Positions 1,117-23,567 of a DNA stretch of 25,976 bases are shown piece after piece; within the stretch, counting starts at the first letter, position 1, and each line of letters starts with the position of its first letter. Origin of the DNA: a virus. Lineage: Duplodnaviria; Heunggongvirae; Uroviricota; Caudoviricetes. The translations under genes were made by a program, and so were the position numbers. The notes under the pieces were generated by a model. The model was not told the origin of the DNA and did no database searches. It saw only the letters and a program-made list of their open reading frames with translations. The stretch is taken from positions 1-25,976 of IMG/VR virus record IMGVR_UViG_2529293141_000017; one strand, 5' to 3'.

Positions 1117-1251
1117 ATGTCGCAAAAACCGTTAAAAACCACCGTGATTTGTATCACGGTAGTGCTCATTATCTGGATCACCCACAGTTCACTGTGCGAG
1201 TTCCGGTTCCGGATAGCGGGGCGCGGAGATTGCGGCGTTCTTACAGTGTAA
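1117..1251 (+). CDS. Hok/Gef-family-like small membrane peptide (44 aa), possibly truncated
   Basis: Own translation MSQKPLKTTVICITVVLIIWITHSSLCEFRFRIAGRGDCGVLTV: an N-terminal hydrophobic helix followed by SLCEFRFR, matching the Hok/RelF core (KSLCEIRYR). AAGGAG sits 6 nt upstream of the ATG. The C-terminus diverges from Hok. Confidence 0.3.
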   Translation: MSQKPLKTTVICITVVLIIWITHSSLCEFRFRIAGRGDCGVLTV

Positions 1252-9221: not shown

Positions 9222-9242
9222 GTGATGACCGGATTCAAAATT

Positions 9243-10472
9243 ATGAGCAGAGCACTTAACAAACTGAGCGATACACAGCTGAGGAAAATCAACGGCACAC
9301 CCGCCCAAAAAACAGCCTTTCTTAATGACGGTGGAAACCTGAGCGTCAGGCATTCAACCAGTGGCCTTTTAACCTGGTATTTCACTTACAGGGCCGGAAC
9401 GGGAAGGGGGGCACCACCGGAACGCATTAAGCTGGGAAATTATCCTGATCTGAGCCTGAAATCAGCCAGGGAAAAAGCCGCCCAGTGTCGCGCATGGCTG
9501 GCAGAGGGGAAAAATCCACGTCATGAAATGAATTACACCGTACAGGAAGCGTTAAAGCCGGTAACGGTTGGCGATGCGCTCACCTACTGGCTTGAGTCGT
9601 ACGCAAAGGAAAACCGTGTGGATTATGACCCACTGAAAAAGCGGCTAAATAATCACGTAATACAGCACATTGGCCCTATGCCGCTGGATAAATGCGAGCT
9701 ACGGCACTGGCTGACCTGTTTTGATCGGGTGGCAAAGAAAGCCCCTGTTTCCGCCGGGTTCCTGCTACAGACATGCAAGCAGGCGCTTAAGTTCTGCAGG
9801 AAGCGGCGCTATGCAATCAGCAACGTTCTTGATGATATGAGTGTGGCGGACGTTGGGAAAAAACCGGATATAAGTGAGCGTGTCTTAAGTAACAAAGAAC
9901 TTGGCGAATTATTGCAGGCACTGGACAAAAAAATATTTTCCCCTTACTACGTCGCACTAATCCGCCTCCTGATTGTTTTCGGATGCCGGACAGTAGAACT
10001 GAGGTTATCGGAGATCGGCGAGTGGGATTTTACCGAAATGCTCTGGACCGTTCCGAAGGAGCACAGCAAAACGAAGGTAGCCATATTCCGGCCCATACCG
10101 GAAGCGATACTGCCGTTCGTCACGCAGCTGGTGGAGCAGAACAGGCACACGGGCTTATTGCTGGGGGAAGTGAAACAGGAAACCAGCGTATCGCAGTACG
10201 GCAGATTGGTGCACAGGAGGCTTAAACACCCTCACTGGTCACTGCATGACATCCGGCGCACCTTTACAACCATGCTGAACGATTTAGGCGTTGATCCTCA
10301 CGTCGTGGAGCAGCTTACAGGCCACCAGATGCCAGGAATGCAACGCGTGTACAACCATTCCCGCTATATTGATGCGAAACGCAATGCGCTTGATATGTGG
10401 GTGGAGCGGTTGGAGATACTGGCGGGAACACATGAAAACGTAACCACGCTACCAGTAACCAGAATAAAATAA
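9243..10472 (+). CDS. int: Tyrosine integrase (P4-type)
   Basis: N-terminal LSDTQLRKI...NDGGNLSV...WYFTYR arm-binding-like region, and a C-terminal catalytic region with HDIRRTF and a terminal RY...H. Alternative ATG at 9222. Confidence 0.88.
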   Translation: MSRALNKLSDTQLRKINGTPAQKTAFLNDGGNLSVRHSTSGLLTWYFTYRAGTGRGAPPERIKLGNYPDLSLKSAREKAAQCRAWLAEGKNPRHEMNYTVQEALKPVTVGDALTYWLESYAKENRVDYDPLKKRLNNHVIQHIGPMPLDKCELRHWLTCFDRVAKKAPVSAGFLLQTCKQALKFCRKRRYAISNVLDDMSVADVGKKPDISERVLSNKELGELLQALDKKIFSPYYVALIRLLIVFGCRTVELRLSEIGEWDFTEMLWTVPKEHSKTKVAIFRPIPEAILPFVTQLVEQNRHTGLLLGEVKQETSVSQYGRLVHRRLKHPHWSLHDIRRTFTTMLNDLGVDPHVVEQLTGHQMPGMQRVYNHSRYIDAKRNALDMWVERLEILAGTHENVTTLPVTRIK

Positions 10473-10846
10473 TTTTTTTCGTGTTTTTTCAGTATGCGCA
10501 TACTGGATAAGTGCACAGATACAACGTGAAACAATGTGCAATAACGTGACACAATCACGAACAAGAGGCCAAAAAGAATACAGATTTATAAGTTACTGAT
10601 TTTTAATGCTCAGCTGGTTTTTTATACATTAGTGAATTACGCGTTAAAGCGTGCGAAAAAAGGCATAAAACAAGATTTTATGCCTTTGTATTAACATGAA
10701 TTTAAATGATTTTATCCTGATTATTCCTCTTTCTGTAAACCATGCGACACCAACATTTGCCAACTCTGAATCATCCTGACACAATCAGACACATCCCAAC
10801 GCAATAGAACACGAAATAACTCTTTAAGAAACGAAAGGGGGCAATA

Positions 10847-11035
10847 GTGTTAAGCACTGATCGGTTTATACGTGAAAAAGAATGCGAAAAGCTAACAGGC
10901 CTTAGCCGCTCATGCCGCTACCGCCTGGAAAAGGCCGGACAATTCCCATCACGTCGTAAACTTGGCGGGCGTTCTGTTGGCTGGTCTTTATCTGAGGTTT
11001 TGGCCTGGAAGGATAGCTGCAAGGCAGTTCACTAA
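10847..11035 (+). CDS. alpA: AlpA-family (MerR/Xis-like) transcriptional regulator
   Basis: 62 aa with LTGLSRS..YRL...FP..RKLGGRSVGW, matching the AlpA pattern. GTG start with an AAGGGGG Shine-Dalgarno. Confidence 0.75.
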   Translation: MLSTDRFIREKECEKLTGLSRSCRYRLEKAGQFPSRRKLGGRSVGWSLSEVLAWKDSCKAVH

Positions 11036-11215
11036 AAAGACTGGCGGCACACAGCCACCACCAATCCATTATTGACCGATACCGGGATCTCGGTATCGGG
11101 AATAAACGCCATAATACTGAGGTATAACCATGATGAAATATACGCCCGTACAGGGGCGGGGATTCGTTCGCCCTGGTGAATCTGAAAAGCCATGCTATAG
11201 GGTATTTTCAGGCAT

Positions 11216-11243
11216 AAAAAAAGCGGTCCCGATATGGAACCGC
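11216..11243 (-). terminator. Rho-independent terminator for the minus-strand repressor cassette
   Basis: On the minus strand: GGCGGTTCC atatc GGGACCGC followed by T7. Confidence 0.45.
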
Positions 11244-11311
11244 CTTTCTGAACAATTAACCCGCTGCGCCGTATGTGTCAACAATCATAAGCCCGAACAT
11301 GATAACCGTGA

Positions 11312-11515
11312 TCAGGCTGGTGGGCAATTACCTTGCTTGTTGGGGCCGTATTGTGCTGCCATTTTCATCCGTTCAGAACGTGAATATTTTTTTAGAAACT
11401 CATCAAGGACAAAAGCGCATGGAGCGAATCTTTCTGATTCATGCTCGAGCGCCATATTTTCGTGCTCTCTGTTCGTTTTTTGCGATGGTGTATTGGTTGA
11501 TTCTTTATTGGTCAT
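11312..11515 (-). CDS. Hypothetical small protein (67 aa), second gene of repressor cassette A
   Basis: Paralogue of 12028-12255: shared MTN start and a conserved C-terminal F-x-L-D/E-x-F-x-K-Y-x-R motif. It is followed by a terminator. Confidence 0.45.
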   Translation of the reverse strand: MTNKESTNTPSQKTNREHENMALEHESERFAPCAFVLDEFLKKYSRSERMKMAAQYGPNKQGNCPPA

Positions 11516-11572
11516 TGTGTGTACCTGTAAAGCAATGCGCCGTAGTACCTCACGCCACGGCGCTGATAGTAA

Positions 11573-11752
11573 TTATTCTGATTCTTTGGCCTTGCGGCGC
11601 TGGCGGCGTTTGATCTCGCCTTTTGCTGCCGTAACTAGAAATCCGGCGGTACTTTCGCCAGGTTCTTTAAGTTGCTCAATATCGGTCATTACCTCATGCG
11701 GGATTCTGACCGTTGTCATTTGTGATTTTGCGTTCTTTGCACCTGTTGCCAT
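11573..11752 (-). CDS. Ribbon-helix-helix DNA-binding protein (59 aa), candidate island repressor, copy A
   Basis: Own translation MATGAKNAKSQMTTVRIPHEVMTDIEQLKEPGESTAGFLVTAAKGEIKRRQRRKAKESE, with a beta-strand / helix / helix pattern. AGGAGA Shine-Dalgarno 7 nt upstream. Divergent from a plus-strand promoter and operators. Confidence 0.55.
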   Translation of the reverse strand: MATGAKNAKSQMTTVRIPHEVMTDIEQLKEPGESTAGFLVTAAKGEIKRRQRRKAKESE

Positions 11753-11771
11753 TTCTGGTTCTCCTGATAAT

Positions 11772-11864
11772 CGGTGTATTTCAGTATACGCAAAAAAAAG
11801 ATAAAAAAAGTCTTGCGGTGTATTTCACCTGAATGTAGATTTAAAAATGAAGGTGAAATACACC
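11772..11864. promoter_or_regulatory. Operator/promoter region A: GGTGTATTTCACC in three copies, two forming a perfect 13-bp inverted pair
   Basis: 11817-11829 and 11852-11864 are exact reverse complements; a third direct copy lies at 11772-11783. The region sits between divergent genes. Confidence 0.45.
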
Positions 11865-11938
11865 CAAAACAACAACGCCCCGCAGTGATGGGAACACATA
11901 CGGGGCGTCTAACCAAACCATTAATTGAGGTAACGATT

Positions 11939-12010
11939 ATGGCTATAAAAGAGCATAGCTTACTCTTTATACACACACAAACGCCCCGGAAACGGAATAA
12001 TCCGTTTCAT
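11939..12010 (+). pseudogene. Truncated 5' remnant of an Icd-like gene (paralogue of 12685-12879)
   Basis: MAIKEHSLLFIHTQT... shares the M-x-x-x-H-x-x-x-L-x-HTQT start with 12685, then loses similarity where cassette B begins. Confidence 0.35.
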
Positions 12011-12027
12011 AGTTCGGTTTTGTGCAC

Positions 12028-12255
12028 TCATCCTGGCGGTCGGTTTTTGCCGGATTTAAGCCGCCGTGGGTATTTATCGACAAAATCTTCAAGGGCAAAT
12101 TTTTCTGGTGGCACTAAGCGCGGCGCTGGTGGTGGTATTTTTGTTCTGGTTAGTTCTTCCTCAACTCTGGCGCAGGCTTCTGACTGCCTTTGCCGGATGA
12201 TTTCATCATCTTGCGTTTGCGTGTCTTGTATTGGTGATAGTGTGTTGTTGGTCAT
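12028..12255 (-). CDS. Hypothetical small protein (75 aa), second gene of repressor cassette B
   Basis: Paralogue of 11312-11515, same position in the cassette. Confidence 0.5.
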   Translation of the reverse strand: MTNNTLSPIQDTQTQDDEIIRQRQSEACARVEEELTRTKIPPPAPRLVPPEKFALEDFVDKYPRRLKSGKNRPPG

Positions 12256-12312
12256 GATACTGCCCTGTAAAGCAATGCGCCGTAGTACCTCACACCACGG
12301 CGCTGATAGTGA

Positions 12313-12492
12313 TTATTCTGATTCTTTGGCCTTGCGACGCTGGCGGTATTCAACTTCCCGCTTTAATGCAGCTGTAACAAACTGCCCTGTACTTTCGCCG
12401 GGCATTTTTACCGCCTCAACATTGTTCATAACTTCATGTGGAACCCTTGCCGCAACTGTTTGTGATTTTGCGTTTACTGCTTTTGTCGCCAT
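12313..12492 (-). CDS. Ribbon-helix-helix DNA-binding protein (59 aa), candidate island repressor, copy B
   Basis: MATKAVNAKSQTVAARVPHEVMNNVEAVKMPGESTGQFVTAALKREV.... GAGGGG Shine-Dalgarno upstream. Divergent from the replication operon. Confidence 0.6.
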   Translation of the reverse strand: MATKAVNAKSQTVAARVPHEVMNNVEAVKMPGESTGQFVTAALKREVEYRQRRKAKESE

Positions 12493-12542
12493 GTTGAGCA
12501 CCCCTCATAAAAAACAAATGCAGTATGCAGGAAAAAAAACAA

Positions 12543-12594
12543 GTGTTCAACACTTGACGTGTTTAACACCTCGATTTAAATTGGTGTTCAACAC
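12543..12594. promoter_or_regulatory. Operator/promoter region B: three GTGTT(C/T)AACAC palindromes overlapping a TTGACG-N17-TAAATT promoter
   Basis: Palindromes at 12543, 12559 and 12584 bracket the -35 and -10 of the plus-strand promoter feeding 12685 onward. Confidence 0.5.
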
Positions 12595-12684
12595 CTTATT
12601 TAGGCAAGGTGTAGAAACGACGAAACCCCGCACTGTAGGAGCAGTAACGGGGCTTCTAACCAACAACGTAAACGAGGAGCCGTT

Positions 12685-12879
12685 ATGGTTGCCGTAAATC
12701 ATATACCACACCTTGTACACACACAAACGGCCTTTGTGTGGCGTTTTCTGGCACTGAGTGCCGGAGAATCTCAAATCATCCACGTAACCGCCTGGACGGA
12801 ACGCGAAGCGCGTAACCTTTGCCCGTCCGGTTGTGTTGCTGTATTTGCCGCCCGTATTCGCCAGGGGGTAGGCTTATGA
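12685..12879 (+). CDS. Small protein, possibly Icd-like (host cell division inhibitor family); first gene of the early operon
   Basis: 64 aa with a GAGGAG Shine-Dalgarno. The motif FVWRFLALS...TEREAR...FAARI resembles Icd-like proteins of P4-type elements, from memory only. Confidence 0.5.
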   Translation: MVAVNHIPHLVHTQTAFVWRFLALSAGESQIIHVTAWTEREARNLCPSGCVAVFAARIRQGVGL

Positions 12880-13109
12880 GCCAGGAAATCACACTACAAC
12901 AGGCAGCAGAACGCGCCCACCAAATCGAAGTTATTTGCGCACTGGCAGAGGATTACCCTGGCATGATGACCGACAGCGAATCAGGGGCAATCATCGGCTT
13001 ACTTAAACGCCTTAGCGGTGAGGTCTGCGTATTCCTGAGCGATGAACAGGAAAGAAGAACGCTTATTTCTAACGAAAAAAAATGCGGAGGGGTACACCAT
13101 GTGCAATAA
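12876..13109 (+). CDS. Hypothetical protein (77 aa)
   Basis: ATG overlaps the upstream stop (ATGA); GGGGGT Shine-Dalgarno; translationally coupled. Confidence 0.5.
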   Translation: MSQEITLQQAAERAHQIEVICALAEDYPGMMTDSESGAIIGLLKRLSGEVCVFLSDEQERRTLISNEKKCGGVHHVQ

Positions 13110-13341
13110 CATCCGTCCGGACGCAGCCGCCGCCGCACTCACTACGCTGATGCACGCGCTTATTGATATTGAATGCACGGCAGAGCTTGCACAAAAGGAA
13201 GAACGGGAGGAATACACATTGTTCGCCCTGGAATGTATCCGATACACCGCCACGCGGTCGCTGAATGACGCTAAAAATATTCTTGTTGCAGATTGTGAAA
13301 ATGGGGGGGGGTTATGCGTGATGATCGTTTTAATTCCCTGA
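13099..13341 (+). CDS. Hypothetical protein (80 aa) with a G9 tract near its 3' end
   Basis: GGAGGGG Shine-Dalgarno before ATG 13099; overlaps the neighbouring genes. Confidence 0.45.
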   Translation: MCNNIRPDAAAAALTTLMHALIDIECTAELAQKEEREEYTLFALECIRYTATRSLNDAKNILVADCENGGGLCVMIVLIP

Positions 13342-13547
13342 AACAAGAATTTTCCGGCGTTCCTGATGATGCGGCTGATGCGCTTTCGTCAATGCCAGAA
13401 CTTATTAGAGCGGCTTTTTTCTTACTTTCCACGAGAGAATATAAATCAACGGGGCTTGATGTACTGAATATCGCCGCCGATTATGCGGAATATGTGGCAG
13501 AGGCGCGTTACAGAAGAAAATTTCCTGAGGATGTAAGCCATGCGTGA
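13314..13547 (+). CDS. Hypothetical protein (77 aa)
   Basis: ATG directly after the G9 tract, which serves as its Shine-Dalgarno; operon context. Confidence 0.5.
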   Translation: MRDDRFNSLKQEFSGVPDDAADALSSMPELIRAAFFLLSTREYKSTGLDVLNIAADYAEYVAEARYRRKFPEDVSHA

Positions 13548-13773
13548 TATTTACCACGAAACAACAGAACGCGTATTTCTTGCACTTTCTCACAGTGAAA
13601 ACATGCTGGAAATATTGCGCATATGGCTTGAAACACTTGGCGACAATGAACGCGACAAACAAAAATCAAGAATTGTCACGGCATTAATAACGCTTCTTGA
13701 GCCTGTAATAATGGAACTACAAGAAATAGAGACATTGCACGACAGATATAACGAACAGCACACCGGAGAATAA
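13540..13773 (+). CDS. Hypothetical protein (77 aa)
   Basis: Start overlaps the upstream stop (ATGCGTGA); operon context. Confidence 0.5.
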   Translation: MRDIYHETTERVFLALSHSENMLEILRIWLETLGDNERDKQKSRIVTALITLLEPVIMELQEIETLHDRYNEQHTGE

Positions 13774-13778
13774 AAATA

Positions 13779-14078
13779 ATGAAACTTAAATATTCTGGCT
13801 TAACTGCCAGTGGCAACACTCACCCTAAATTTACGCGCGGTGATATTTACCGCGACCAGTACGGCGGTACGGTAATGATTAAGGGCGTGGCGGGACGGTG
13901 CGTAACTTACCGCCGTGAAGGTTACGAATATGATTGCGTGATGCCTGTTTATCAGTTCCGGCGTGATTTTTCTCTGGTACAGACCGCGCCGCATAACGTG
14001 CCCACCAGCAGGGAGAAAGCACGCGCCAATATTCAGAAGATGAAAAACATGATTAACGGATTCAGGGGCAAGAAATGA
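13779..14078 (+). CDS. Hypothetical protein (99 aa), translationally coupled to the helicase gene
   Basis: Stop overlaps the helicase ATG (ATGA). Confidence 0.55.
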   Translation: MKLKYSGLTASGNTHPKFTRGDIYRDQYGGTVMIKGVAGRCVTYRREGYEYDCVMPVYQFRRDFSLVQTAPHNVPTSREKARANIQKMKNMINGFRGKK

Positions 14079-15472
14079 AAAGCGCACCGAACTTAAAAAA
14101 ACAGCCTTACGACAAGATGACCGAAGTCATCATTTTTGCGGGTAGTGATGCGTGGGCACATGCGAAACAGTGGCAGGAACAGGACGGGCGACTGGCTGGC
14201 GATAATGTGCCTCCCATTGTGCTGGCTGATGATCAACTGGATGAACTGGCAGACCTGAGAATCATCGACGAGGGGCGCTATTGTGTCCGGCTGTACAAGG
14301 CAGGCCACATCAGGCCATCAAATATTAATGCCATTGCGCACAAGCTGGCGGCGGCGGGCGTAACTGATGCGAATTATTACCCCGAAGGGATACACAGCCA
14401 GAAGCGGGAGAACTGGCGCGAATATCTGGAACGGGAGCGGGGGAAAAAGCCAGGGGAAGAACACCACCAGCGAAAAACCACGCTACCGATGAGCGTTGGA
14501 TCTGCCGGATACGACACGCAATTAGATTACGTGGTAAAGGGGATTATTCCGGCATCGTCGCTTTGCAGCATATACGGGGCGAGCGGTTCCTATAAATCAT
14601 TCCTTGCGGGTTCGTGGGCGTGTCACGTTTCCACGGGCCGCCAGTGGGGAGGCCGCAGGGTGGCGCATGGCGCTGTTCTCTATGTGGTTGGTGAAGGCGG
14701 TATCGGCGTTCCGCGTCGTGTAAAAGCCTGGGAGGTTGTGCACGGTGAGCAGGTGAAAAATCTGTATCTGGTAAACCGTCCCATCTTTCCGGCGGTCCCG
14801 CTTGATGTTGATGAAATGGTTATCGCTGCCCGTCAGGTGGAGCGGGAAACGGGTAAACCTGTACGCATGATTATTCTGGATACGCTGGCGCGTTGCTTTG
14901 GTGGGAATGATGAAAATGATTCCCGTGATATGGGGGCGTTTATCCGTGGTTGTGACGAACTGAAACGACGCACAGGGGCCACGGTGCTGGTGGTTCACCA
15001 TTCCGGCAAGGATGAGACGAAAGGCGCGCGCGGTTCCAGTGCATTTCGTGCATCACTGGATGCTGAATACCGGATACGCAGGGAGGACGCAGGAAGCGAA
15101 GCGCTGGTTATCTCATGCACCAAAATGAAGGACGCGGAGGAACTCAAAGAAGCCGCATATGACTTACGCGTGGTGGAGCTGTTTACCGACGCTGACGGGG
15201 AGTTAATCACGTCGCTGGTGGTGGTGGATAAGCCGCGCCCTCCCGTTGAACTGGAGCGCATCGAGGAGGCAGGCAACAAGACGGAAAACCATACCGCACT
15301 ATGGGGGTGCATCCGTTCACGCACACAGAACGGCGACAAGTGCACGATCCCGCTGTTACGTGATGACATGAAACGGCTTGGGTATGACGTGAAAAATATG
15401 CGGCGATGGTTAGCCAAACTGGAAAAAGACGCCGTGATTTACATTGATGGTGATGATGTAGGACCACTGTAA
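14075..15472 (+). CDS. Replicative ATPase/helicase (RecA-fold, RepA/AAA_25-like) with an N-terminal domain of unknown role
   Basis: Walker A GASGSYKS, Walker B-like ILDTLARCFGG, and VVHHSGKD...GARGSSA motifs. Confidence 0.8.
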   Translation: MKSAPNLKKQPYDKMTEVIIFAGSDAWAHAKQWQEQDGRLAGDNVPPIVLADDQLDELADLRIIDEGRYCVRLYKAGHIRPSNINAIAHKLAAAGVTDANYYPEGIHSQKRENWREYLERERGKKPGEEHHQRKTTLPMSVGSAGYDTQLDYVVKGIIPASSLCSIYGASGSYKSFLAGSWACHVSTGRQWGGRRVAHGAVLYVVGEGGIGVPRRVKAWEVVHGEQVKNLYLVNRPIFPAVPLDVDEMVIAARQVERETGKPVRMIILDTLARCFGGNDENDSRDMGAFIRGCDELKRRTGATVLVVHHSGKDETKGARGSSAFRASLDAEYRIRREDAGSEALVISCTKMKDAEELKEAAYDLRVVELFTDADGELITSLVVVDKPRPPVELERIEEAGNKTENHTALWGCIRSRTQNGDKCTIPLLRDDMKRLGYDVKNMRRWLAKLEKDAVIYIDGDDVGPL

Positions 15473-15672
15473 AAAGTGAGTAGCAAAAGTGAGTAATGAT
15501 GAGGTTTTTACAAAATATTAACACGATTACTCACTTTCTCACCTGTATACATGCTCAAAAGTGAGGAGTAAAAAAATCATTATGAAACATACACATAAAG
15601 CATCAAAAAATATCAAGTGAGACGAAGCGAGACGCTTTAAAAAGTGAGGTGTAAAAGTGAGCATGAGTGAGG
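15473..15672. repeat. Iteron array (AAAGTGAG, at least 7 direct and 1-2 inverted copies) with an AT-rich spacer: candidate island replication origin
   Basis: Copies at 15473, 15486, 15530 (inverted), 15558, 15615, 15641 and 15654, immediately 3' of the helicase gene. Confidence 0.55.
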
Positions 15673-15926
15673 AGATAACCAAAATGCGCAGAGACAGAAC
15701 AGGGCCGAAATATAAAGCGTTAGACATGACAGAGCACGCCTTAAAGGTGGCAATCAGGGTAATAGACCGCCACGCGGGGGAAGGATACGCGAAAGCACAT
15801 CCCGAACTGATAAGCGCATTCATGACCACGACGGCGGCAAATTTTGCCACGCTGACAGAGCGGGAGATTGCCGAAGCGGAACAGGTAACAACCATCAACG
15901 TTAAAACCGGAGAGGTGGAATCATGA
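15663..15926 (+). CDS. Hypothetical protein (87 aa)
   Basis: ORF begins inside the last iterons; its stop overlaps the next ATG. Confidence 0.4.
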   Translation: MSEEITKMRRDRTGPKYKALDMTEHALKVAIRVIDRHAGEGYAKAHPELISAFMTTTAANFATLTEREIAEAEQVTTINVKTGEVES

Positions 15927-16228
15927 GCGAACCAAAATTTGGTGAAAAATTTTACAAGCACAACGGACGGATCACGATTCTGCAAATAAGCGCAGCTACA
16001 CCAGGCTGGTGGGTTGAAACAGACGAAGGATCCTCACCCGTGGCATCATGGGCGCTTTGTGTGCTTAGTTACCCTGACCGCGATGTGTATCAGGATATTC
16101 TGCCTGTGATATCCACTGACAAAGGCATGAAACCCGTAGACATCAAAAACATGGGGTTTCAGTGCGTAATGCTCACTGAAAAAATGATGGAAGAGATGAA
16201 AAAGAACAATGCCGGATCGCTTCACTGA
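15923..16228 (+). CDS. Hypothetical protein (101 aa)
   Basis: Coupled ORF upstream of ssb. Confidence 0.5.
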   Translation: MSEPKFGEKFYKHNGRITILQISAATPGWWVETDEGSSPVASWALCVLSYPDRDVYQDILPVISTDKGMKPVDIKNMGFQCVMLTEKMMEEMKKNNAGSLH

Positions 16229-16237
16229 GGTGGCAAT

Positions 16238-16648
16238 ATGACAGCACAAATTGCAGCTTACGGGCGGCTGGTGGACGACCCGCAGGTAAAACAGAGCAGC
16301 AAGGGCACACCGATGACTCTGGCGCGTATGGCGGTATCGTTGCCATGCAGCCAGGCACATGACGGACAGGCGACGTTATGGTTATCGGTTATCGCATTTG
16401 GCAAACAGGCCGATTTCCTGGCTAAACATCAAAAAGGCGATGTTGCCAGCGTATCCGGCACGATGCAGGTAAGCCAGTGGACCGGACAGAACGGGGAAAC
16501 GCGGCGGGGGTATCAGGTTATTGCAGACAGCGTAATCAGTGCCCGCGCGGCACGTCCAGGCGGGAACAGACGCAAAACCACAGGCACACAGGGTAATCAG
16601 CCACCAGCGGGAGGCGATGACCCTTACGGTGACGGTATTCCGTTCTGA
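16238..16648 (+). CDS. ssb: Single-stranded DNA-binding protein
   Basis: OB-fold-like N-terminal region, a Gly/Pro/Gln-rich linker, and an acidic C-terminal tip DDPYGDGIPF (compare DDDIPF of SSB). Confidence 0.8.
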   Translation: MTAQIAAYGRLVDDPQVKQSSKGTPMTLARMAVSLPCSQAHDGQATLWLSVIAFGKQADFLAKHQKGDVASVSGTMQVSQWTGQNGETRRGYQVIADSVISARAARPGGNRRKTTGTQGNQPPAGGDDPYGDGIPF

Positions 16649-16658
16649 GGGGGTGACG

Positions 16659-16907
16659 ATGGTACATGACCGCATAGCGGAGGAACTCGAGGCAAAAGGC
16701 TTTTACCGGAGGGCGTCGGCGCGATGGGGTGAAGTCATGCAACTGGTGGAGACAGACAAGGAACGGCATCAGGTTACGATGCGACGGCTGGAATGTTCCA
16801 GGAAGGCACAGAGGCCACCGGAGCCGCCAACGGAGAACTACGCAGACCTGAGAAATGCAGTAAATCGCACTTACGCAGACATGGGGCTGAGCAAATTAGC
16901 AGAGTAG
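16659..16907 (+). CDS. PerC-family-like transcriptional regulator (82 aa)
   Basis: MVHDRIAEELEAKGFYRRASARWGEVM resembles the PerC/Pch N-terminal motif; GAGGGGG Shine-Dalgarno. Confidence 0.5.
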   Translation: MVHDRIAEELEAKGFYRRASARWGEVMQLVETDKERHQVTMRRLECSRKAQRPPEPPTENYADLRNAVNRTYADMGLSKLAE

Positions 16908-17173
16908 GAATATCAGAACCACACCATACAGCCGGAGCAATCCGGCTTTTTGTTATTTTTTGTAAATTATTTGTTCGTGGTTGTTCCACGTTGTTCACTG
17001 AGCGGATCGGCATATTTTACCCGAACTGAATCATGATTATTCTCGCCCGTGGTGCCAGGACGCTGGGGCCACTTTCCCGCCTGTTAATGTGCTCGCCAAT
17101 ATTCATTACCAGGCGGGAAAACGATCGGTGCGATTGCTGATTTCCTTATGAAAAACGGTTGAGTGTTTGCCGC

Positions 17174-17211
17174 GTCCTGGAGTTCCTTACTTAACCCCAG
17201 GACTTTTTTTT
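17174..17211 (+). terminator. Terminator-like hairpin plus T8 ending 1 nt before the major capsid ATG
   Basis: GTCCTGG ... CCAGGAC stem followed by TTTTTTTT and then ATG 17212. Confidence 0.45.
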
Positions 17212-18369
17212 ATGCCGAGAATAATCGAATTACGCCAGCAGAAAACCGCCATTAAAAATCAGATGCGCGACATGCTGGAGAACGCTGAAAAAGAAAACCG
17301 CAGTCTTAACGATGCTGAGGGCGCAAAATTTGACGAATTACGCGCTAAAGCTGAATCCCTCGATAAAGACATTTCCCGCCTTGAAGCCATTGCAGACGAA
17401 GAGCGCAGCAAGCCAGGTAAAAGCAGTCAGACCACTGACCCCGCAGAACTACGAAACTACATTCTGACGGGTGAAACCCGCGCATTAAGTACAGGCGTTC
17501 CCGCTGATGGTGGTTATACCGTTATCCCCGAACTGAACACCGAAATCATGCGAATGCTGACGGATGAATCCACCATGCGCCGCATCTGTACCGTGAAGAA
17601 AATCAGCAGCAACGAGTTTAAGCAGCTTGTTTCCGCTGGCGGTGCGACCGTTAACCACGGTGAAGAGGGTAAGGCACGCGAACAGACCAGCACCCCGCAG
17701 ATTAACGAGGTGAGCATTAAGCTGTATCCGGTCTATGCGTACCCGCGCACCACACAGGAAATCGTGGATTTTTCCGATGTGGACATCCTTTCATGGCTGA
17801 CGGGTGAGATTGGCGACACCTTCACGGAAACCGAAGAAAGCGATCTGGTTGTGGGCGACGGTGACAAAAAAGCAAAAGGTTTTTTATCCGTACCCCGTGC
17901 AGAGAAGAACGACAAAGAGCGTGATTTTGGTACGTTGCAGGTAATTAAACCTTCCGAATCTCTGGCGTGGACATCTGCGGACCCGTTGATCGACCTGAAA
18001 TTTGCATTACGTAAAAAATACCGCAAAAACGCGGTCTGGGTGGTTAACTCCACGACGGCGGCAAAACTTCAGAAGGTGAAGAACGCGAACGGTGATTACA
18101 TCTGGCGCGACCGTTTACAGGCGGGTGATCCTGATACGTTGCTGGGCCTTCCGGTCGAATATCTGGAGTTTATGCCTGATAACGTTATTGCCCTGGGTGA
18201 CTTCAAACGCGGTTACTACATTGTTGATCACGAAACAGGTGTTCGCACCAGACCGGACAACCTCACAGAGCCGGGCTTCATCAAAATTTTCACGCAGAAA
18301 TATTTAGGCGGTGGCGTGGTGGATTCGAACGCGATCAAGATTCTGGAACTGCCACAGGACGACGATTAA
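17212..18369 (+). CDS. Major capsid protein (HK97 fold)
   Basis: Coiled-coil delta-domain-like N-terminus, ~385 aa, followed by a prohead protease gene. The TTG at 17167 is rejected because it would read through the hairpin. Confidence 0.88.
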   Translation: MPRIIELRQQKTAIKNQMRDMLENAEKENRSLNDAEGAKFDELRAKAESLDKDISRLEAIADEERSKPGKSSQTTDPAELRNYILTGETRALSTGVPADGGYTVIPELNTEIMRMLTDESTMRRICTVKKISSNEFKQLVSAGGATVNHGEEGKAREQTSTPQINEVSIKLYPVYAYPRTTQEIVDFSDVDILSWLTGEIGDTFTETEESDLVVGDGDKKAKGFLSVPRAEKNDKERDFGTLQVIKPSESLAWTSADPLIDLKFALRKKYRKNAVWVVNSTTAAKLQKVKNANGDYIWRDRLQAGDPDTLLGLPVEYLEFMPDNVIALGDFKRGYYIVDHETGVRTRPDNLTEPGFIKIFTQKYLGGGVVDSNAIKILELPQDDD

Positions 18370-18423
18370 CAGCATACAGAAGGGGCTTAAAAGCCCCTTT
18401 AGTGTTTTATGGGTGAAAAAATT

Positions 18424-18981
18424 ATGAAGAGTATGGAAATCCGGTCATCGGAAATCACCACCAGCGGAGCCGGTACGCTGACGGGCTACGTTGTTCGCTG
18501 GGATAAGCTTTCAGAACTGTTATGGGGTGAGTTTTACGAAAAATTCCAGCGGGGAGCGTTTACTGAATGGCTTGCAGCGGGTAATGACGTTCGCGGCCTG
18601 TATGAGCATGACCACAGTATGTTACTGGGGCGTACCCGTTCCGGCACGCTGAAACTGGAAGAGGACGAAACAGGGTTACGCTTTGAACTGACCCCACCGG
18701 ATACCAGCACAGGGCGGGACGTTATCGAACTGGTTAAACGTGGTGATATATCCGGCATGAGCTTTGGCTTTCGTTCCCGTAAGGATGTATGGGATACCAC
18801 AACAGATCCATGCGTGCGCACCGTGCTGGTGGCGGAACTGTACGAAATTACCGTTACATCCGTTCCGGCTTACCCTGATTCCGGCGTGGAGCTGGCCCGC
18901 CGTTCCCTGTATGAGCAGCACCCCGAAAAAATGCCGCGTGCGGATAATCGCCGCTGGTGGGTGGATTTAGCGGGGGTGTGA
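18424..18981 (+). CDS. Prohead maturation protease (HK97-family)
   Basis: Position between capsid and portal genes, and size. Alternative ATG at 18409. Confidence 0.8.
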   Translation: MKSMEIRSSEITTSGAGTLTGYVVRWDKLSELLWGEFYEKFQRGAFTEWLAAGNDVRGLYEHDHSMLLGRTRSGTLKLEEDETGLRFELTPPDTSTGRDVIELVKRGDISGMSFGFRSRKDVWDTTTDPCVRTVLVAELYEITVTSVPAYPDSGVELARRSLYEQHPEKMPRADNRRWWVDLAGV

Positions 18982-18982
18982 T

Positions 18983-20194
18983 ATGTGGCCTTTCAGAAGA
19001 AAAAAAGAGCAGCGCAGCATGACGCTTGATGAATTTATGGCGCTGGCTGGCACATCGAACACGGGGGCGGGTGAGTACGTATCATCGGGGACAGCGGAAT
19101 CACTGCCCGCCGTCATGAACGCCGTCACGGTCATCTCTGAGGCGGTGGCTACCATGCCGTGTTACCTGTACCTGGTACGCAATGAGAAGGGGAAGGAGGC
19201 CCGCGAGTGGCTTGATTCTCATCCGGTCGATCACATCCTCAACGAGCGCCCGAACGCATGGCAAACCCCCTACCAGTTTAAGCGAATGATGATCCGCCAC
19301 TGCCTGTTAAACGGTAATGCTTATGCGGTGATTCAGTGGGGGCGTGATGGTTTTCCGGCGGCTTTACATCCTTACCCGCCGCAGTCGGTGAACGTGGAGC
19401 AGACAGGCGAACACAACTGGCGCTACTGCATCACTGACGCCTACACCGGAAACACCCGCAACTATTTACCGTGGGAAGTACTTCACCTTCGTTACTCCAC
19501 GGATGACGGCTTTATGGGGCGCTCACCTGTAACCATCTGCCGCGAATCGCTGGGGCTTGGGCTGGCCCAACAACGCCACGGCGCGAGCGTGATGCGTGAT
19601 GGCATGATGGCGGCAGGGGTTATCACGTCAGGCGAATGGCTGGACGGCGTGAAGGGCAAACAGGCATTAGCCGCACTGGAACGCTACAAAGGGGCCAGAA
19701 ACGCCGGAAAAACGCCCATCCTTGAAGGGGGGATGAGCTATCAGCAGCTGGGCATGAGTAATCAGGATGCTGAATGGCTGGCCTCCCGTCGCTTCACCAT
19801 TGAAGACATCGCCCGAATGTTCAACGTCTCGCCGATTTTTTTGCAGGAATACAGCAACAGCACCTACAGCAATTTCAGCGAGGCAAGCCGCGCATTTCTC
19901 ACCATGACGATGCGCCCGTGGCTGGCGAACTTTGAGCAGCAGATAAAAAACGCCCTGCTGGTGGCCTCGCCTGTACCTGGTATCCGGTATCAGGTGGAGT
20001 TTGACAGCGCGGACCTGTTACGGGCCACACCTGGCGAACGCTTTGCCACCTATGAGCGCGGCATCAAATCCGGCGTTATGTGCCCGAACGAAGCCCGCGA
20101 ACGTGAAGGACTGTCACCGCGTGATGGTGGTGATGAGTTCAGTCAGGCATGGAAACAGGAAGTAAAAATCAGCGAGGGAGAAAAACCGGAATGA
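18983..20194 (+). CDS. Portal protein
   Basis: 403 aa immediately downstream of the protease, with a GGGGG Shine-Dalgarno. Confidence 0.88.
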   Translation: MWPFRRKKEQRSMTLDEFMALAGTSNTGAGEYVSSGTAESLPAVMNAVTVISEAVATMPCYLYLVRNEKGKEAREWLDSHPVDHILNERPNAWQTPYQFKRMMIRHCLLNGNAYAVIQWGRDGFPAALHPYPPQSVNVEQTGEHNWRYCITDAYTGNTRNYLPWEVLHLRYSTDDGFMGRSPVTICRESLGLGLAQQRHGASVMRDGMMAAGVITSGEWLDGVKGKQALAALERYKGARNAGKTPILEGGMSYQQLGMSNQDAEWLASRRFTIEDIARMFNVSPIFLQEYSNSTYSNFSEASRAFLTMTMRPWLANFEQQIKNALLVASPVPGIRYQVEFDSADLLRATPGERFATYERGIKSGVMCPNEAREREGLSPRDGGDEFSQAWKQEVKISEGEKPE

Positions 20195-20529
20195 ACATAG
20201 GGCGACTGCGTGACAGGATAACGATTCAGACCCTGAAACAGACCAGAGCCATGACGGGCGAAATACTCGAAACGTGGGAGGACGGTCACACACTCTGGGC
20301 AAGCGTGAACATGATCAGCAGCAAGGAGGCCATTTCATCGGGCGCAGAGCTGGCGATTGGTACCGTAAGGATCTGGATACGGTACCGGAAGGACATCAAC
20401 GCCACCAGCCGGATAAAGGTCAGTACGGGGCCGCTGGCGGGGCGTGTACTGAATATCATCGGGCAGCCGTTGCCGGATGTCGCCAGGACACGCCTTGAAA
20501 TTCTTTGTCGTGAGGGCGCGGAAAAATGA
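20191..20529 (+). CDS. Head-tail adaptor / head closure protein
   Basis: Small coupled ORF after the portal gene (ATGA overlap); the longer start at 20149 is rejected. Confidence 0.55.
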   Translation: MNIGRLRDRITIQTLKQTRAMTGEILETWEDGHTLWASVNMISSKEAISSGAELAIGTVRIWIRYRKDINATSRIKVSTGPLAGRVLNIIGQPLPDVARTRLEILCREGAEK

Positions 20530-20822
20530 CAGAAGAACTTATCACCCTGGAAGAAGTGAAACTCCATTGCCGTATCGATGGAGACGAGGAAGACCAGTTA
20601 ATCAGCGGATACATTGCCGCATCGCTTGAGGCGTGCCAGATACACATAGGCAGGCGCTTTGATGACGGGCTGGAGTTCACGCCAGCCATAAAGATTGGCT
20701 GCATGATGTTTATCGCTCACCTGTATGAGAATCGCCAGATTGTCGCGGATAACGCAAAAACACGCGTACCCATGACGATTGGCGCACTCTGGACGGCTTA
20801 CCGTGATGTGGGGGTGTACTGA
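20526..20822 (+). CDS. Head-tail connector (gp6-like)
   Basis: 98 aa, coupled, in the typical position. Confidence 0.55.
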   Translation: MTEELITLEEVKLHCRIDGDEEDQLISGYIAASLEACQIHIGRRFDDGLEFTPAIKIGCMMFIAHLYENRQIVADNAKTRVPMTIGALWTAYRDVGVY

Positions 20823-21262
20823 TGCCGTGGCAACCATTAAGACGATGCACAGAACCAGGCTGTAACAGGCGCGTTAAATCCGGCAAGTGTGAAGAGCACA
20901 GGCGGGCGGCATGGCGTGCAGAGGATGCCAGACGAGGACACCGCCGCGCGCGTGGATATTCCAGACAGTGGGACAAATACCGCGCCATGTATCTGAGTAA
21001 AAACCCGTTATGCGTGCGATGCCTTGAGAAGGGGATATATACGCCCGCCGTGGTGGTGGATCACATTATCCCGATTAATGGCGGTGATGATGTTCTCTTC
21101 TGGCCCGAATGGAACCATCAACCATTGTGTCAGGCGTGTCATAACCAGAAAACGAAATGGCTTGATCCGGCAACAAAAAGCAAGCGTGCCGCAGGTGGAT
21201 TTCGTGAAGAGGAAGAACGGGCCGCTAACCGCAATAACTGGATGTATGACGCTGATGAATGA
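20822..21262 (+). CDS. HNH endonuclease (terminase-associated)
   Basis: Cys-rich N-terminus and DHIIP...N.QPLC..CHN.KT HNH motif; located just upstream of terS. Confidence 0.85.
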   Translation: MPWQPLRRCTEPGCNRRVKSGKCEEHRRAAWRAEDARRGHRRARGYSRQWDKYRAMYLSKNPLCVRCLEKGIYTPAVVVDHIIPINGGDDVLFWPEWNHQPLCQACHNQKTKWLDPATKSKRAAGGFREEEERAANRNNWMYDADE

Positions 21263-21431
21263 GCGGGAACAAAACCGCCTTATCCGTGGACTTATAAGGC
21301 AGCGTGACGCATGGAAGACACAGGAAACAGGGCATAAAGATAAAGCGTCAGGACGTGCAGAACGCATCACAGCGAAGCGATTAACCGACCGTGACCGCGA
21401 GGTTATGGAATGTTTCCGCAATCGCTGGTGA
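21255..21431 (+). CDS. Candidate small basic protein (58 aa) overlapping the HNH stop
   Basis: Own translation MNEREQNRLIRGLIRQRDAWKTQETGHKDKASGRAERITAKRLTDRDREVMECFRNRW; the ATG overlaps the HNH stop by 8 nt. Confidence 0.3.
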   Translation: MNEREQNRLIRGLIRQRDAWKTQETGHKDKASGRAERITAKRLTDRDREVMECFRNRW

Positions 21432-21552
21432 TGCTGTATGACGGGGTGGGGGGGCGTTTTCAGGACAAACCCGACCCCGCCGGGCACCGAACGCCTCCTC
21501 AAATTTTTATGCACGGGAATTTTTTGAAAAATAATCTGGCGAAAAAATAAGC

Positions 21553-23554: not shown

Positions 23555-23567
23555 TGAGGTCAGCAGC

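What the first reader, a model, noticed from the sequence alone, without database searches (positions are those of the whole stretch)
12685..14078. Six short, translationally coupled ORFs between the repressor and the helicase
Six ORFs of 64-99 aa are packed with overlapping stops and starts ahead of the replicative ATPase. In satellites this position commonly holds excision factors, helper-sensing or derepression factors, and helper-interference proteins. The first may be Icd-like; the rest have no function I can assign.
Basis: inference. Interest (0 to 1): 0.45.

Follow-up and report, generated by a model that had tools for sequence, protein, structure and literature searches.

The report
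Small early genes of a phage satellite
The six short ORFs are real, selected genes at the start of the replication operon of an E. coli capsid-forming phage satellite; only two belong to named families, none has a tested function, and two are halves of one gene split at a variable run of G's.

Summary
Six ORFs (12685-14078, + strand; best starts give 64, 77, 80, 77, 77 and 99 aa) run head to tail into a RepA-family helicase. Stops and starts overlap by 4, 11, 28, 8 and 4 nt, with one 5-nt gap. All six evolve under purifying selection (dN/dS 0.29-0.54), so they are genes. The island is a capsid-forming PICI.

O1 is Icd-like and matches the 65-aa ORF downstream of P4's CI RNA. I take that ORF to be P4 kil from memory. 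O6 is a DUF4222 protein with an SH3/Tudor-like barrel. O2-O5 are four unrelated, all-helical proteins almost confined to enterobacterial satellites, with no family, defence or structure match.

"Six" depends on state. O3 and O4 are one 144-155-aa gene when a G tract (G9 here) has 7 or 10 G's. The tract ranges from 7 to 11 G's in 89 copies. A7 instead of A8 fuses O2 to O3.

The block behaves as a cassette array that reshuffles freely and sits ahead of different replicases. In relatives the same block follows P4-type isrK/C4 immunity RNAs. Here it follows a YlcI/YnfO-like gene, three operator palindromes and a covarying leader hairpin.

Verdict: an ordinary, uncharacterised satellite early operon. 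No excision or derepression function is supported.

The parts
12313..12501 (-).
   Evidence: NCBIfam NF041551 at 2.4e-16. PGAP names it so in L001. A homologue lies next to the Icd-like gene in 65 of 89 related copies. A repressor role is inferred only.
12543..12594 (.). Three copies of the 11-bp palindrome GTGTTNAACAC (12543, 12559, 12584): candidate operators
   Evidence: 3 matches against 0.02 expected, and none elsewhere in the window. Relatives with other YlcI alleles carry other palindromes at the same place.
12554..12582 (+). Sigma-70-like promoter TTGACG-17-TAAATT for the rightward operon, interleaved with the palindromes
   Evidence: Consensus scan, 9 of 12 matches. This is a pattern match only; the total number of such sites in the region is not above chance.
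12623..12668 (+). Leader RNA hairpin (12623-12655) followed by the invariant tail CTAACCAACAACG (12656-12668)
   Evidence: 30 sequence variants in 71 related loci. 88.7% of cells are paired against 30-52% in slid controls. 8 of 12 pairs show compensatory changes and 0 of 500 shuffles reach the observed values. No Rfam family matches.
12685..12879 (+). O1: Icd-like protein (64 aa), first gene of the operon
   Evidence: NF033153 at 3.2e-18. The 65-aa ORF downstream of P4 CI RNA hits the same model at 1.6e-21. hhalign to that P4 ORF gives E 9e-5 at 60% probability. dN/dS is 0.32.
12720..12750 (+). Terminator-like hairpin plus T run inside O1 (CACACAAACGGCCTTTGTGTG GCGTTTTCTG)
   Evidence: Scan hit. 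Present only in O1 alleles at least 83% identical to this one and absent from other Icd-like alleles, so its significance is doubtful.
12876..13109 (+). O2: 77-aa helical protein (phrog_1478), an optional cassette
   Evidence: phrog_1478 at 3e-28. Present in 19 of 89 related copies. 40-43% identical homologues exist in the early-left regions of Fels-1 and Klebsiella temperate phages. dN/dS is 0.54 from only 17 pairs.
13075..13082 (+). A8 tract at the O2/O3 junction; A7 fuses O2 to O3
   Evidence: A8 in 17 and A7 in 2 of 19 copies. Natural fusions include O2-O3-O4 (P0008, 221 aa, 52 contigs; P0019) and O2-O3 (P0469).
13099..13341 (+). O3: 80-aa helical protein, the N-terminal half of the phrog_2512 gene
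   Evidence: phrog_5146 at 1.9e-14; phrog_2512 residues 1-77 of 154. There are two main allele groups, about 50% identical. dN/dS is 0.39.
13303..13311 (+). G9 tract at the O3/O4 junction, the longest homopolymer in the window; its length sets whether O3 and O4 are fused or separate
   Evidence: Among 89 copies: G7 24, G8 34, G9 21, G10 4, G11 2 and interrupted tracts 4. Six of 10 haplotypes with identical flanks show more than one length. G7 in L082 gives one 148-aa ORF. It is the only G or C run of 8 or more in the window.
13314..13547 (+). O4: 77-aa helical protein, the C-terminal half of the phrog_2512 gene, with its own ATG
   Evidence: phrog_2512 residues 78-154 at 1.8e-49 and phrog_24341 at 1.8e-41. 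dN/dS is 0.29. The exact sequence is on at least 1000 contigs.
13540..13773 (+). O5: 77-aa helical protein (phrog_2196)
   Evidence: phrog_2196 at 4.7e-38. All 120 listed of 521 homologues are named from E. coli where a name is given. Present in 72 of 89 copies. dN/dS is 0.31.
13779..14078 (+). O6: DUF4222 protein (99 aa) with an SH3/Tudor-like barrel and a C-terminal helix; its stop overlaps the replicase start
14075..15472 (+). RepA-family (AAA_25) replicative helicase, the distal partner of the coupled array
   Evidence: PF13481 at 7.9e-44. phrog_2850 matches over the full length. PGAP calls it 'helicase RepA family protein'.

Best explanation
The six ORFs are genuine genes. They form the promoter-proximal half of the rightward early (replication) operon of an E. 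coli capsid-forming PICI. By position they correspond to the P4 left-operon stretch between the immunity region and the alpha replicase.

Shown: they are conserved, selected, tightly packed and co-oriented with the replicase. O1 is an Icd-like protein. O6 is a DUF4222 protein with an SH3/Tudor-like barrel. O2-O5 are four unrelated small families, predicted helical for O2-O4 from a low-confidence model, and nearly confined to enterobacterial satellites. The slots reassort freely between islands. O2, O3 and O4 occur in nature both as separate proteins and as fused polypeptides, depending on the length of an A tract and a G tract at their junctions.

Inferred mechanism: on induction, a single mRNA starts at the operator-flanked promoter near 12554-12582. 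Ribosomes load at the strong O1 site. Overlapping stop/start junctions then pass translation from gene to gene into the helicase. This keeps the small proteins and the replicase co-expressed and keeps the transcript covered against Rho-dependent polarity. That is the logic described for P4 kil/eta and P1 icd.

Inferred products: O1 arrests host division. O2-O3-O4 act together as one unit (the fusion argument), and with O5 they are accessory early proteins directed at host or helper components. O6 accompanies the replicase.

The G tract is best read as a mutational hotspot. All three frames are tolerated because O4 keeps its own start codon and a G-rich ribosome-binding site.
For: Genes are real: dN/dS is 0.29-0.54 for all six against 0.18 for the helicase. 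PGAP makes the same calls. The exact proteins sit on about 300 to at least 1000 contigs each.

Context: the cf-PICI gene set is present. The block matches 1521 of 5426 complete E. coli genomes and precedes RepA helicase, primase-family or DUF5906 replicases.

Families.

Layout parallel to P4: the order alpA/vis, immunity region, Icd-like ORF, small genes, replicase is shared. Relatives L095, L104, L118 and L119 carry isrK and C4 RNAs directly upstream of an O1 homologue that is followed by O3, O4 and O6 (O5 in three of the four).

Fusions.

Reassortment: adjusted mutual information between non-adjacent slots is at most 0.15.

Control region: palindromes, promoter-like site, covarying leader hairpin. 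No promoter- or terminator-like site above chance lies between O1 and the helicase.

Literature: P4 Eta/Kil translation prevents early termination (PMC10111431). The region downstream of alpA in cf-PICIs is variable and of unknown function.
Against: No expression data exist: the transcript, its start and the coupling are all inferred. O2-O6 show no sequence similarity to P4 epsilon, orf151 or cnr, so the P4 parallel rests on position only, apart from O1.

The window has no C4/isrK RNA. An Icd-type translational control therefore has no known effector here.

The hairpin plus T run inside O1 is allele-specific.

DUF4222 is found beside only 2 of 80 helicase relatives in other genera. O6 is thus not an obligatory replicase partner, and its linkage may reflect a shared recombination block.

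The AF2 model of the O2-O3-O4 fusion is unreliable (pLDDT 46), so no structure supports a complex.

Differences in tract length could partly be sequencing errors.
Confidence: 0.6

Rival explanations
1. O3/O4 in this window is a broken copy, a frameshift pseudogene, of one 144-155-aa gene. The array then has five genes, one of them inactive.
For: The fused form is one intact ORF in the closest relative over the block, L082 (96.9% identical, G7). Many fused 144-155-aa proteins exist, and three of the clusters alone sit on 258, 212 and 152 contigs. PGAP labels the G9 copy in L084 'frameshifted'. phrog_2512 is the fused form.
Against: Split phases make up about two thirds of 89 copies (G8 34, G9 21, plus G11 and interrupted tracts). 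In every phase O4 begins with its own ATG behind a G-rich Shine-Dalgarno-like run. In the commonest phase (G8) the junction is ATGCGTGA, identical to the intact O4/O5 junction. The four interrupted tracts (GGGGGTGG x3, G8TGG x1) all sit in the split phase. O4 dN/dS is 0.29 across fused and split copies. The exact 80-aa G9-type O3 is on 298 contigs.
Confidence: 0.15
2. The homopolymer tracts are a purposeful switch. This could be phase variation, or -1 ribosomal or transcriptional slippage on the G run. It would set the ratio of separate to fused O2/O3/O4 proteins and so tune an activity such as helper specificity.
For: Tract length differs between copies with identical 430-nt flanks in 6 of 10 haplotypes. 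G9 is the only G or C run of 8 or more in the window and lies exactly at a gene junction. A second tract (A8) lies at the neighbouring junction. In the G9 phase, G_GGG_GGG is a perfect slippery heptamer, and a -1 shift would yield exactly the natural fusion sequence ...CENGGGVMRDD.
Against: No phase is conserved, although a programmed frameshift site would need one. There is no stimulatory structure downstream of the run (z = -0.54). No phase switches any ORF off. A8 is nearly fixed (17 of 19). Homopolymer miscalls in draft assemblies could inflate the variation. There are no within-strain data.
Confidence: 0.1
3. One reading: several of the small proteins are helper-directed factors (derepression, helper sensing, interference) or excision factors.
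For: Position only. P4 epsilon, which derepresses the helper, lies in the equivalent place. The families are nearly satellite-specific: tblastn against 50,697 phage records finds nothing for O3 or O4 and one small record each for O1 and O6. dN/dS values are moderately high and alleles are diverse, as expected for proteins that meet varying partners.
Against: There is no match to PF25738 (epsilon), AlpA/Xis/HTH, Cnr or any PADLOC model. AlpA, encoded upstream, is the known activator in Gram-negative PICIs and is needed for excision and circularization in EcCIMP1. In the papers I could search, no mutant data exist for these genes.
Confidence: 0.25
4. Some or all of the ORFs are chance reading frames in a non-coding leader.
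For: They are short, and four have no Pfam family.
Against: There is purifying selection in the annotated frame for all six. PHROG families score 1e-14 to 1e-49. Hundreds of homologues keep their length. Shine-Dalgarno motifs precede every start.
Confidence: 0.02

Closest known systems
Satellite phage P4 left operon (vis, isrK/CI RNA, kil/eta, epsilon, orf151, cnr, alpha)
   Same: The gene order is the same: an AlpA/Vis homologue (47% identity), an immunity region, an Icd-like ORF of about 65 aa as the first gene, several small genes, then the replicase. Some relatives of this island even carry P4-type isrK and C4 RNAs upstream of the same block.
   Different: The window has no C4/isrK RNA. 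In its place it has a divergent YlcI/YnfO-like gene, palindromic operators and a different leader hairpin. O2-O6 share no detectable similarity with epsilon, orf151 or cnr. The replicase is a RepA-type helicase rather than the alpha primase-helicase.
Phage P1/P7 immI region (c4 RNA, icd, ant)
   Same: O1 belongs to the NCBIfam family named after P1 Icd. It is likewise the first small ORF ahead of translationally linked downstream genes. The P1 details come from my own knowledge and were not checked here.
   Different: There is no c4 RNA, no a/b target sites and no ant homologue. Division inhibition by O1 is untested.
Early region between alpA and pri-rep of Gram-negative PICIs and cf-PICIs (EcCICFT073, EcCIEDL933)
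   Same: It is the same kind of element with the same position. AlpA activates downstream genes (PMC6092414). The cf-PICI papers call the region after alpA variable and of unknown function. Nearly the same block precedes primase-type PICI replicases in other E. coli strains.
   Different: The published work I could read does not dissect these genes. It states that a global repressor in Gram-negative PICIs is unclear, whereas this island has an operator-flanked promoter and a divergent small regulator candidate.
Homopolymer contingency loci and gene fission/fusion at slippery tracts
   Same: A G7-G11 tract at a coding junction varies between otherwise identical haplotypes.
   Different: It does not switch a gene on and off. 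Every phase keeps both reading frames translatable, and only the linkage (fused or separate) changes. Within-strain switching was not shown.

Membership tests
Icd-like proteins (NCBIfam NF033153; P1 Icd, P4 65-aa ORF) | Match to the family HMM above the curated cutoff | tested here: met
   O1 scores 65.5 bits against a cutoff of 25, E 3.2e-18. The 65-aa ORF downstream of P4 CI RNA scores 76.1 bits against the same model.
Icd-like proteins (NCBIfam NF033153; P1 Icd, P4 65-aa ORF) | First translated gene downstream of a C4/CI-type immunity RNA | tested here: not met
   No C4, isrK or c4-a1b1 hit in the window at gathering score or at E<=5. The positive controls work: P4 and relatives L095, L104, L118 and L119.
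Icd-like proteins (NCBIfam NF033153; P1 Icd, P4 65-aa ORF) | Inhibits host cell division or kills when overexpressed | not testable with these tools
   This needs an expression experiment.
DUF4222 (Pfam PF13973) | Match to the family HMM above the gathering score | tested here: met
   O6 scores 82.1 bits against 27, E 2e-23, covering profile positions 1-53 of 53.
P4 epsilon derepression protein family (Pfam PF25738) | HMM or profile similarity to epsilon | tested here: not met
   Pfam at E<=10 finds nothing for O1-O6. P4 epsilon itself scores 170 bits. hhalign probabilities are below 1%.
P4 Cnr (DUF5375) and P4 orf151 | Sequence or profile similarity | tested here: not met
   blastp and tblastn give E above 0.08. 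hhalign probability is at most 2.3%.
Excisionase / AlpA / HTH_17 | HTH family match in any of O1-O6 | tested here: not met
   Only the upstream gene 10847-11035 matches Phage_AlpA (5e-18). O1-O6 do not.
Capsid-forming PICI (cf-PICI) | int and alpA, a replication module, own capsid/protease/portal/connectors/HNH/TerS/TerL, no tail or lysis genes, about 10-18 kb | tested here: met
   The window ORF layout spans 9222-23849. A 98.5%-identical relative is annotated with exactly this gene set. The criteria are as stated. Only the regulatory and replication genes of the window were run against HMM libraries here.
Capsid-forming PICI (cf-PICI) | Induction by a helper phage and transfer in own capsids with helper tails | not testable with these tools
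   This is an experimental property.
Anti-phage defence systems (PADLOC-DB) | Match to any defence-protein model | tested here: not met
   No hit at E<=1 for O1, O2, the O3-O4 fusion, O5, O6 or their neighbours.
Phase-variable contingency locus | Homopolymer tract whose length varies between near-identical backgrounds | tested here: met
   G7 to G11 among 89 copies. Six of 10 identical-flank haplotypes carry more than one length. Caveat: many copies come from draft assemblies.
Phase-variable contingency locus | Length change switches the product on and off | tested here: not met
   All three phases keep O3 and O4 open, either fused or separate.
Programmed -1 ribosomal frameshift site | Slippery heptamer in phase, a downstream stimulatory structure and a conserved phase | tested here: not met
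   The heptamer G_GGG_GGG is in phase in the G9 state. There is no significant downstream structure (z = -0.54), and the phase is not conserved.

The most novel reading that the evidence does not exclude
The A8 and G7-G11 tracts at the O2/O3 and O3/O4 junctions act as a heritable or recoding switch. They let a satellite population make the same three small domains either as separate proteins or as one fused polypeptide, which changes how the satellite deals with its helper or host. In parallel, the YlcI/YnfO gene, its palindromes and the covarying leader hairpin form a protein-based immunity cassette that is interchangeable with the P4-type isrK/C4 RNA cassette. That would supply the 'missing repressor' of Gram-negative PICIs.
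Probability: 0.12. Interest if true: 0.6.

Novelty: new member of a known kind. Interest (0 to 1): 0.33.

Why it matters
Capsid-forming PICIs and classical Gram-negative PICIs are widespread vehicles of gene transfer in E. coli. The genes between alpA and the replicase are still a blank on their maps, and whether these islands have a repressor is stated to be unclear. This analysis shows that the blank holds a defined, selected and freely reshuffled set of gene slots. The set opens with an Icd-like gene of the P4 type, and the same set can sit behind either RNA-based (isrK/C4) or apparently protein-based control. That gives concrete constructs to test for induction control and for early satellite functions. 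The fused and split forms of O2/O3/O4 point to proteins that work together, and they warn annotators that 'frameshifted' calls here may be functional variants. None of this changes the verdict that the six-ORF finding itself is an ordinary feature of a known kind of element.

Tried and rejected
- **C4/CI or isrK RNA upstream of O1.** Rfam found none at gathering score or at E<=5. The same models find them in P4 and in four relatives.
- **O2-O5 as a diverged paralogue array.** All-against-all hhalign gave probabilities below 2%. MAFFT's tendency to align O2 helix 2 with O3 helix 1 is not supported by profiles.
- **Remote homology.** Pfam at E<=10, NCBIfam, PADLOC and PDB sequence searches gave nothing beyond Icd-like and DUF4222.
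- **Homology to P4 epsilon, orf151 or cnr.** None.
- **Structure of the natural O2-O3-O4 fusion.** AF2 gave pLDDT 46, usable for secondary structure at most, so I ran no fold search on it. MAFFT misaligned the O2-only homologues, so they had to be left out.
- **O6 fold searches.** They gave only the generic SH3/Tudor/KOW barrel. The afdb50 library was not available.
- **O6 as an obligatory replicase partner.** Only 2 of 80 helicase relatives in other genera have a DUF4222 ORF nearby.
- **Terminator-like hairpin inside O1 as a conserved attenuator.** It is present only in the closest allele group.
- **Stimulatory RNA structure after the G run.** None.
- **Cluster listing.** The 90% clusters mix unrelated proteins: long Icd-like forms appear with O2 and helicases with O6. 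I used only the contig counts and P0469 from it.
- **Literature.** Searches on DUF4222, YlcI/YnfO and PICI early genes gave no functional data. One search on P4 kil/eta returned only irrelevant papers.
Full report
**Observation.** The + strand between 12685 and 14078 holds six ORFs that run into a 465-aa helicase gene. Using the starts conserved in homologues, they are as follows.

| ORF | Coordinates | Length |
|---|---|---|
| O1 | 12685-12879 | 64 aa |
| O2 | 12876-13109 | 77 aa |
| O3 | 13099-13341 | 80 aa |
| O4 | 13314-13547 | 77 aa |
| O5 | 13540-13773 | 77 aa |
| O6 | 13779-14078 | 99 aa |

Junctions are ATGA (O1/O2), an 11-nt overlap, a 28-nt overlap, ATGCGTGA (O4/O5), a 5-nt gap, and ATGA (O6/helicase). 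Every start has a purine-rich motif 2-10 nt upstream. That the genes are translationally coupled is an inference from the overlaps.

**Are they genes?** Yes.
- PGAP annotates the same six genes in a 98.5%-identical E. coli relative.
- Each exact protein is in the protein collection on about 300 to at least 1000 contigs.
- I collected 84 related loci from IMG/VR and 4 from complete E. coli genomes and computed Nei-Gojobori dN/dS on codon alignments. The medians are O1 0.32, O2 0.54 (few pairs), O3 0.39, O4 0.29, O5 0.31 and O6 0.36. The helicase gives 0.18 and AlpA 0.12. Between 94% and 100% of pairs fall below 1.
- Caveat: homologues were picked by tblastn in the annotated frame.

**Context.** The window carries, in order:
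- int (9222-10472) and alpA (10847-11035; Phage_AlpA 5e-18);
- two tandem minus-strand modules, each a small hypothetical gene plus a YlcI/YnfO-family gene;
- the six ORFs and a RepA/AAA_25 helicase;
- SSB, a PerC-family gene, an HK97-type capsid, protease, portal, connectors, HNH, TerS and TerL.

This is the gene set of capsid-forming PICIs as defined for EcCIEDL933. The block 12540-14100 matches 1521 of 5426 complete E. coli genomes, with at least 80% coverage in 162. It precedes different replicases in different genomes: RepA helicase, primase-family, DUF5906 and primase-like DNA-binding proteins. Conversely, among 80 loci with helicase relatives from other Enterobacterales, O1 is found in four, O6 in two and O2-O5 in none. 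The small-gene block and the replicase are therefore separable modules.

**Family assignments.**
- O1 is Icd-like (NF033153, 65.5 bits against a cutoff of 25).
- O6 is DUF4222 (PF13973, 2e-23).
- O2-O5 match only unannotated PHROGs: 1478; 5146 and the N-terminal half of 2512; 24341 and the C-terminal half of 2512; and 2196.
- O2-O5 have no hit in Pfam at E<=10 apart from one O5 match at E 0.21 far below the cutoff. They have none in PADLOC, and only chance-level PDB sequence matches for O5 (E at least 0.46).
- Profile-profile comparison shows no paralogy among the six.
- A search of 1.84 billion cluster representatives with a natural O2-O3-O4 fusion found only 66 relatives, so these are narrow families.
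- Against 50,697 phage records, only O2 has true-phage homologues (Fels-1 and Klebsiella temperate phages). In Fels-1 it lies in the early-left region between the repressor and xis/int. O3 and O4 have none. O1 and O6 each hit one small satellite-sized record.

**Structure.**
- AF2 on the O2-O3-O4 fusion was unreliable (pLDDT 46). Its DSSP assignment is all-helical: two long helices each in O2 and O3, and two long plus short helices in O4.
- O6 folded with pLDDT about 90 over residues 20-70, as a five-stranded SH3/Tudor-like barrel followed by a C-terminal helix.
- This is fold-level resemblance only.

**Fission and fusion at homopolymer tracts.**
- The O3/O4 junction is a G9 run (13303-13311). 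It is the longest homopolymer in the window and the only G or C run of 8 or more.
- In L082, the closest relative over the block (96.9% identical), the run is G7 and O3+O4 is one 148-aa ORF.
- A pattern scan plus the E. coli loci gave 89 copies: G7 24, G8 34, G9 21, G10 4, G11 2, GGGGGTGG 3 and G8TGG 1.
- Frame logic from the sequence: 7 or 10 G's fuse the two (...CENGG(G)VMRDD...). With 8 or 11, O3 ends in a TGA that overlaps O4's ATG as ATGCGTGA. With 9 (this window) there is a 28-nt overlap.
- Six of the ten haplotypes with identical 430-nt flanks that were seen more than once carry more than one run length. The length therefore changes on very short timescales, or is sometimes miscalled.
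- Fused 144-155-aa proteins are abundant. The exact split G9-type O3 is nevertheless on 298 contigs.
- The neighbouring O2/O3 junction has an A8 run. A7, seen in 2 of 19 copies, fuses O2 to O3. Natural O2-O3-O4 polypeptides of 217-221 aa exist, one of them on 52 contigs.
- No stimulatory RNA structure follows the G run and no phase is conserved. I therefore read the tract as a tolerated mutational hotspot rather than a programmed frameshift.
- The fusions are Rosetta-stone-type evidence that O2, O3 and O4 act together.

**Cassette behaviour.**
- O2 is present in 19 of 89 copies, O5 in 72 and O6 in 83.
- O1 and O3 each fall into two allele groups about 50% identical. O4 shows values clustered near 68% and near 100%, but intermediates join them into one group at the 85% threshold.
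- Adjusted mutual information between allele classes of non-adjacent slots is at most 0.15. It is higher only for neighbours: O2-O3 0.34, O5-O6 0.54 and O6-replicase 0.40.
- O6's stop overlaps the next gene's ATG in 74 of 80 copies, across two replicase classes.
- DUF4222 is absent from 78 of 80 helicase loci in other genera. A dedicated replicase-accessory role is therefore not established.

**Control region.**
- The intergenic region between the YlcI/YnfO-like gene (12313-12501, minus strand) and O1 holds three copies of the palindrome GTGTTNAACAC (0.02 expected).
- The palindromes are interleaved with a TTGACG-17-TAAATT promoter-like site.
- Relatives with other YlcI alleles have other palindromes at the same place.
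- The leader contains a hairpin (12623-12655) followed by an invariant CTAACCAMCAACG. Across 18 diverse variants, 88.7% of cells pair against 30-52% in slid controls. Eight of 12 pairs show compensatory changes, and no shuffle of 500 reaches the observed values.
- The hairpin matches no Rfam family and its role is unknown.

**Comparison with known systems.**
- P4's left operon reads vis, isrK-like RNA, CI RNA (Rfam C4), a 65-aa ORF, epsilon, orf151, cnr, alpha.
- That 65-aa ORF hits the same Icd-like model as O1 (1.6e-21). I take it to be P4 kil from my own knowledge of the P4 literature. The logic that translating eta/kil prevents premature termination is summarised in PMC10111431.
- O2-O6 have no similarity to epsilon, orf151 or cnr.
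- Four relatives (L095, L104, L118, L119) carry an O1 homologue followed by O3, O4 and O6 (O5 in three of the four). In them, isrK and C4 RNAs lie directly upstream of the Icd-like gene.
- The same downstream block is thus found behind either a P4-type RNA immunity cassette or the cassette seen here (YlcI gene, palindromes and hairpin). This supports reading O1 as the first gene under immunity control. It also makes a repressor role for the YlcI-like protein plausible, though untested.
- The PICI literature states that a repressor in Gram-negative PICIs is unclear, that AlpA is an activator, and that the region after alpA in cf-PICIs is variable and of unknown function.

**Mechanism and verdict.**
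- Best-supported reading: one early operon mRNA with chained translation from O1 into the helicase.
- O1 would be a Kil/Icd-type division inhibitor and leader gene.
- O2-O5 would be satellite-specific accessory proteins, with O2-O4 acting as one unit.
- O6 would be a small barrel protein co-expressed with the replicase.
- Only the gene reality, family memberships, organisation, fusions and reshuffling are shown. Transcription, coupling and all activities are inferred.
Helper interference cannot be excluded.
- The finding is an ordinary, widely distributed and functionally uncharacterised part of a known kind of element. The split-gene tract, the interchangeable control cassettes and the covarying leader hairpin are modest points of added interest.

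Noticed in passing
window 12623-12668 (second copy about 11874-11919): A leader RNA hairpin with strong covariation, followed by an invariant CTAACCAMCAACG tail. It lies upstream of the Icd-like gene in 71 related loci and is in no Rfam family. On the minus strand it is followed by a T-rich tail, so it could also act as a leftward terminator.
   Followed up: partly
L095:4979-5164, L104:2748-2933, L118:3198-3386, L119:3235-3898: In these relatives, P4-type isrK and C4 immunity RNAs (plus a c4-a1b1 target site in L119) precede the Icd-like gene. They take the place of the YlcI/palindrome/hairpin cassette of the window, which suggests interchangeable control modules.
   Followed up: partly
window 11312-11752 and 12028-12501 (minus strand); repeat 11505-11629 / 12245-12369: The module (small hypothetical gene plus YlcI/YnfO-like gene) is duplicated in tandem, with a 125-nt direct repeat 82% identical. 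Unit A has its own inverted pair GGTGTATTTCACC (11817/11852), its own leader hairpin, and a truncated Icd-like start at 11939. Rightward transcription from unit A would therefore run antisense through unit B.
   Followed up: partly
window 11130-11804 and 11774-12697 (+ strand): Two long ORFs (224 and 307 aa) lie antisense to the YlcI modules. Their translations look low in complexity, and only a 34-aa stretch of the second was run against a family library, with no hit. PGAP annotates the equivalent stretch in relatives as a partial Icd-like pseudogene. They are probably not genes.
   Followed up: no
window 12720-12750: A terminator-like hairpin plus T run lies inside the 5' part of O1. It is conserved only among O1 alleles at least 83% identical, so it may be a by-product of the HTQTAFVWRF codons.
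   Followed up: yes
window 970-1128: An Rfam sok antitoxin RNA (RF01794, 62.9 bits against a gathering score of 59) lies outside the island. It points to a hok/sok-type toxin-antitoxin locus in the flanking chromosome.
   Followed up: no
L084:4456-4690 (equivalent to window O5): PGAP marks the O5 homologue as frameshifted in strain 2013C-4081. The alignment shows that copy diverged with a one-base difference around an A-rich stretch in a region where the window reads ACAAACAAAAATC, suggesting another slippage-prone site in the block.
   Followed up: no
L001:14376-14838 against window 12876-13300: In the relative with the best overall match over 10500-15500 (98.5% over the aligned part), O2 and most of O3 are replaced by unrelated sequence. 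One replacement is a 70-aa ORF whose relatives are found fused to O4 (P0253). This illustrates cassette swapping with breakpoints inside the array.
   Followed up: partly
window 14075-14400 against L083:4956-5250: The RepA-type (about 465 aa) and primase-type (about 584 aa) replicases begin with similar codons (MKSAPNLKK against MKLAPNVK). The recombination breakpoint between replicase classes therefore seems to lie inside the replicase gene, which would explain the near-universal ATGA link to O6.
   Followed up: no
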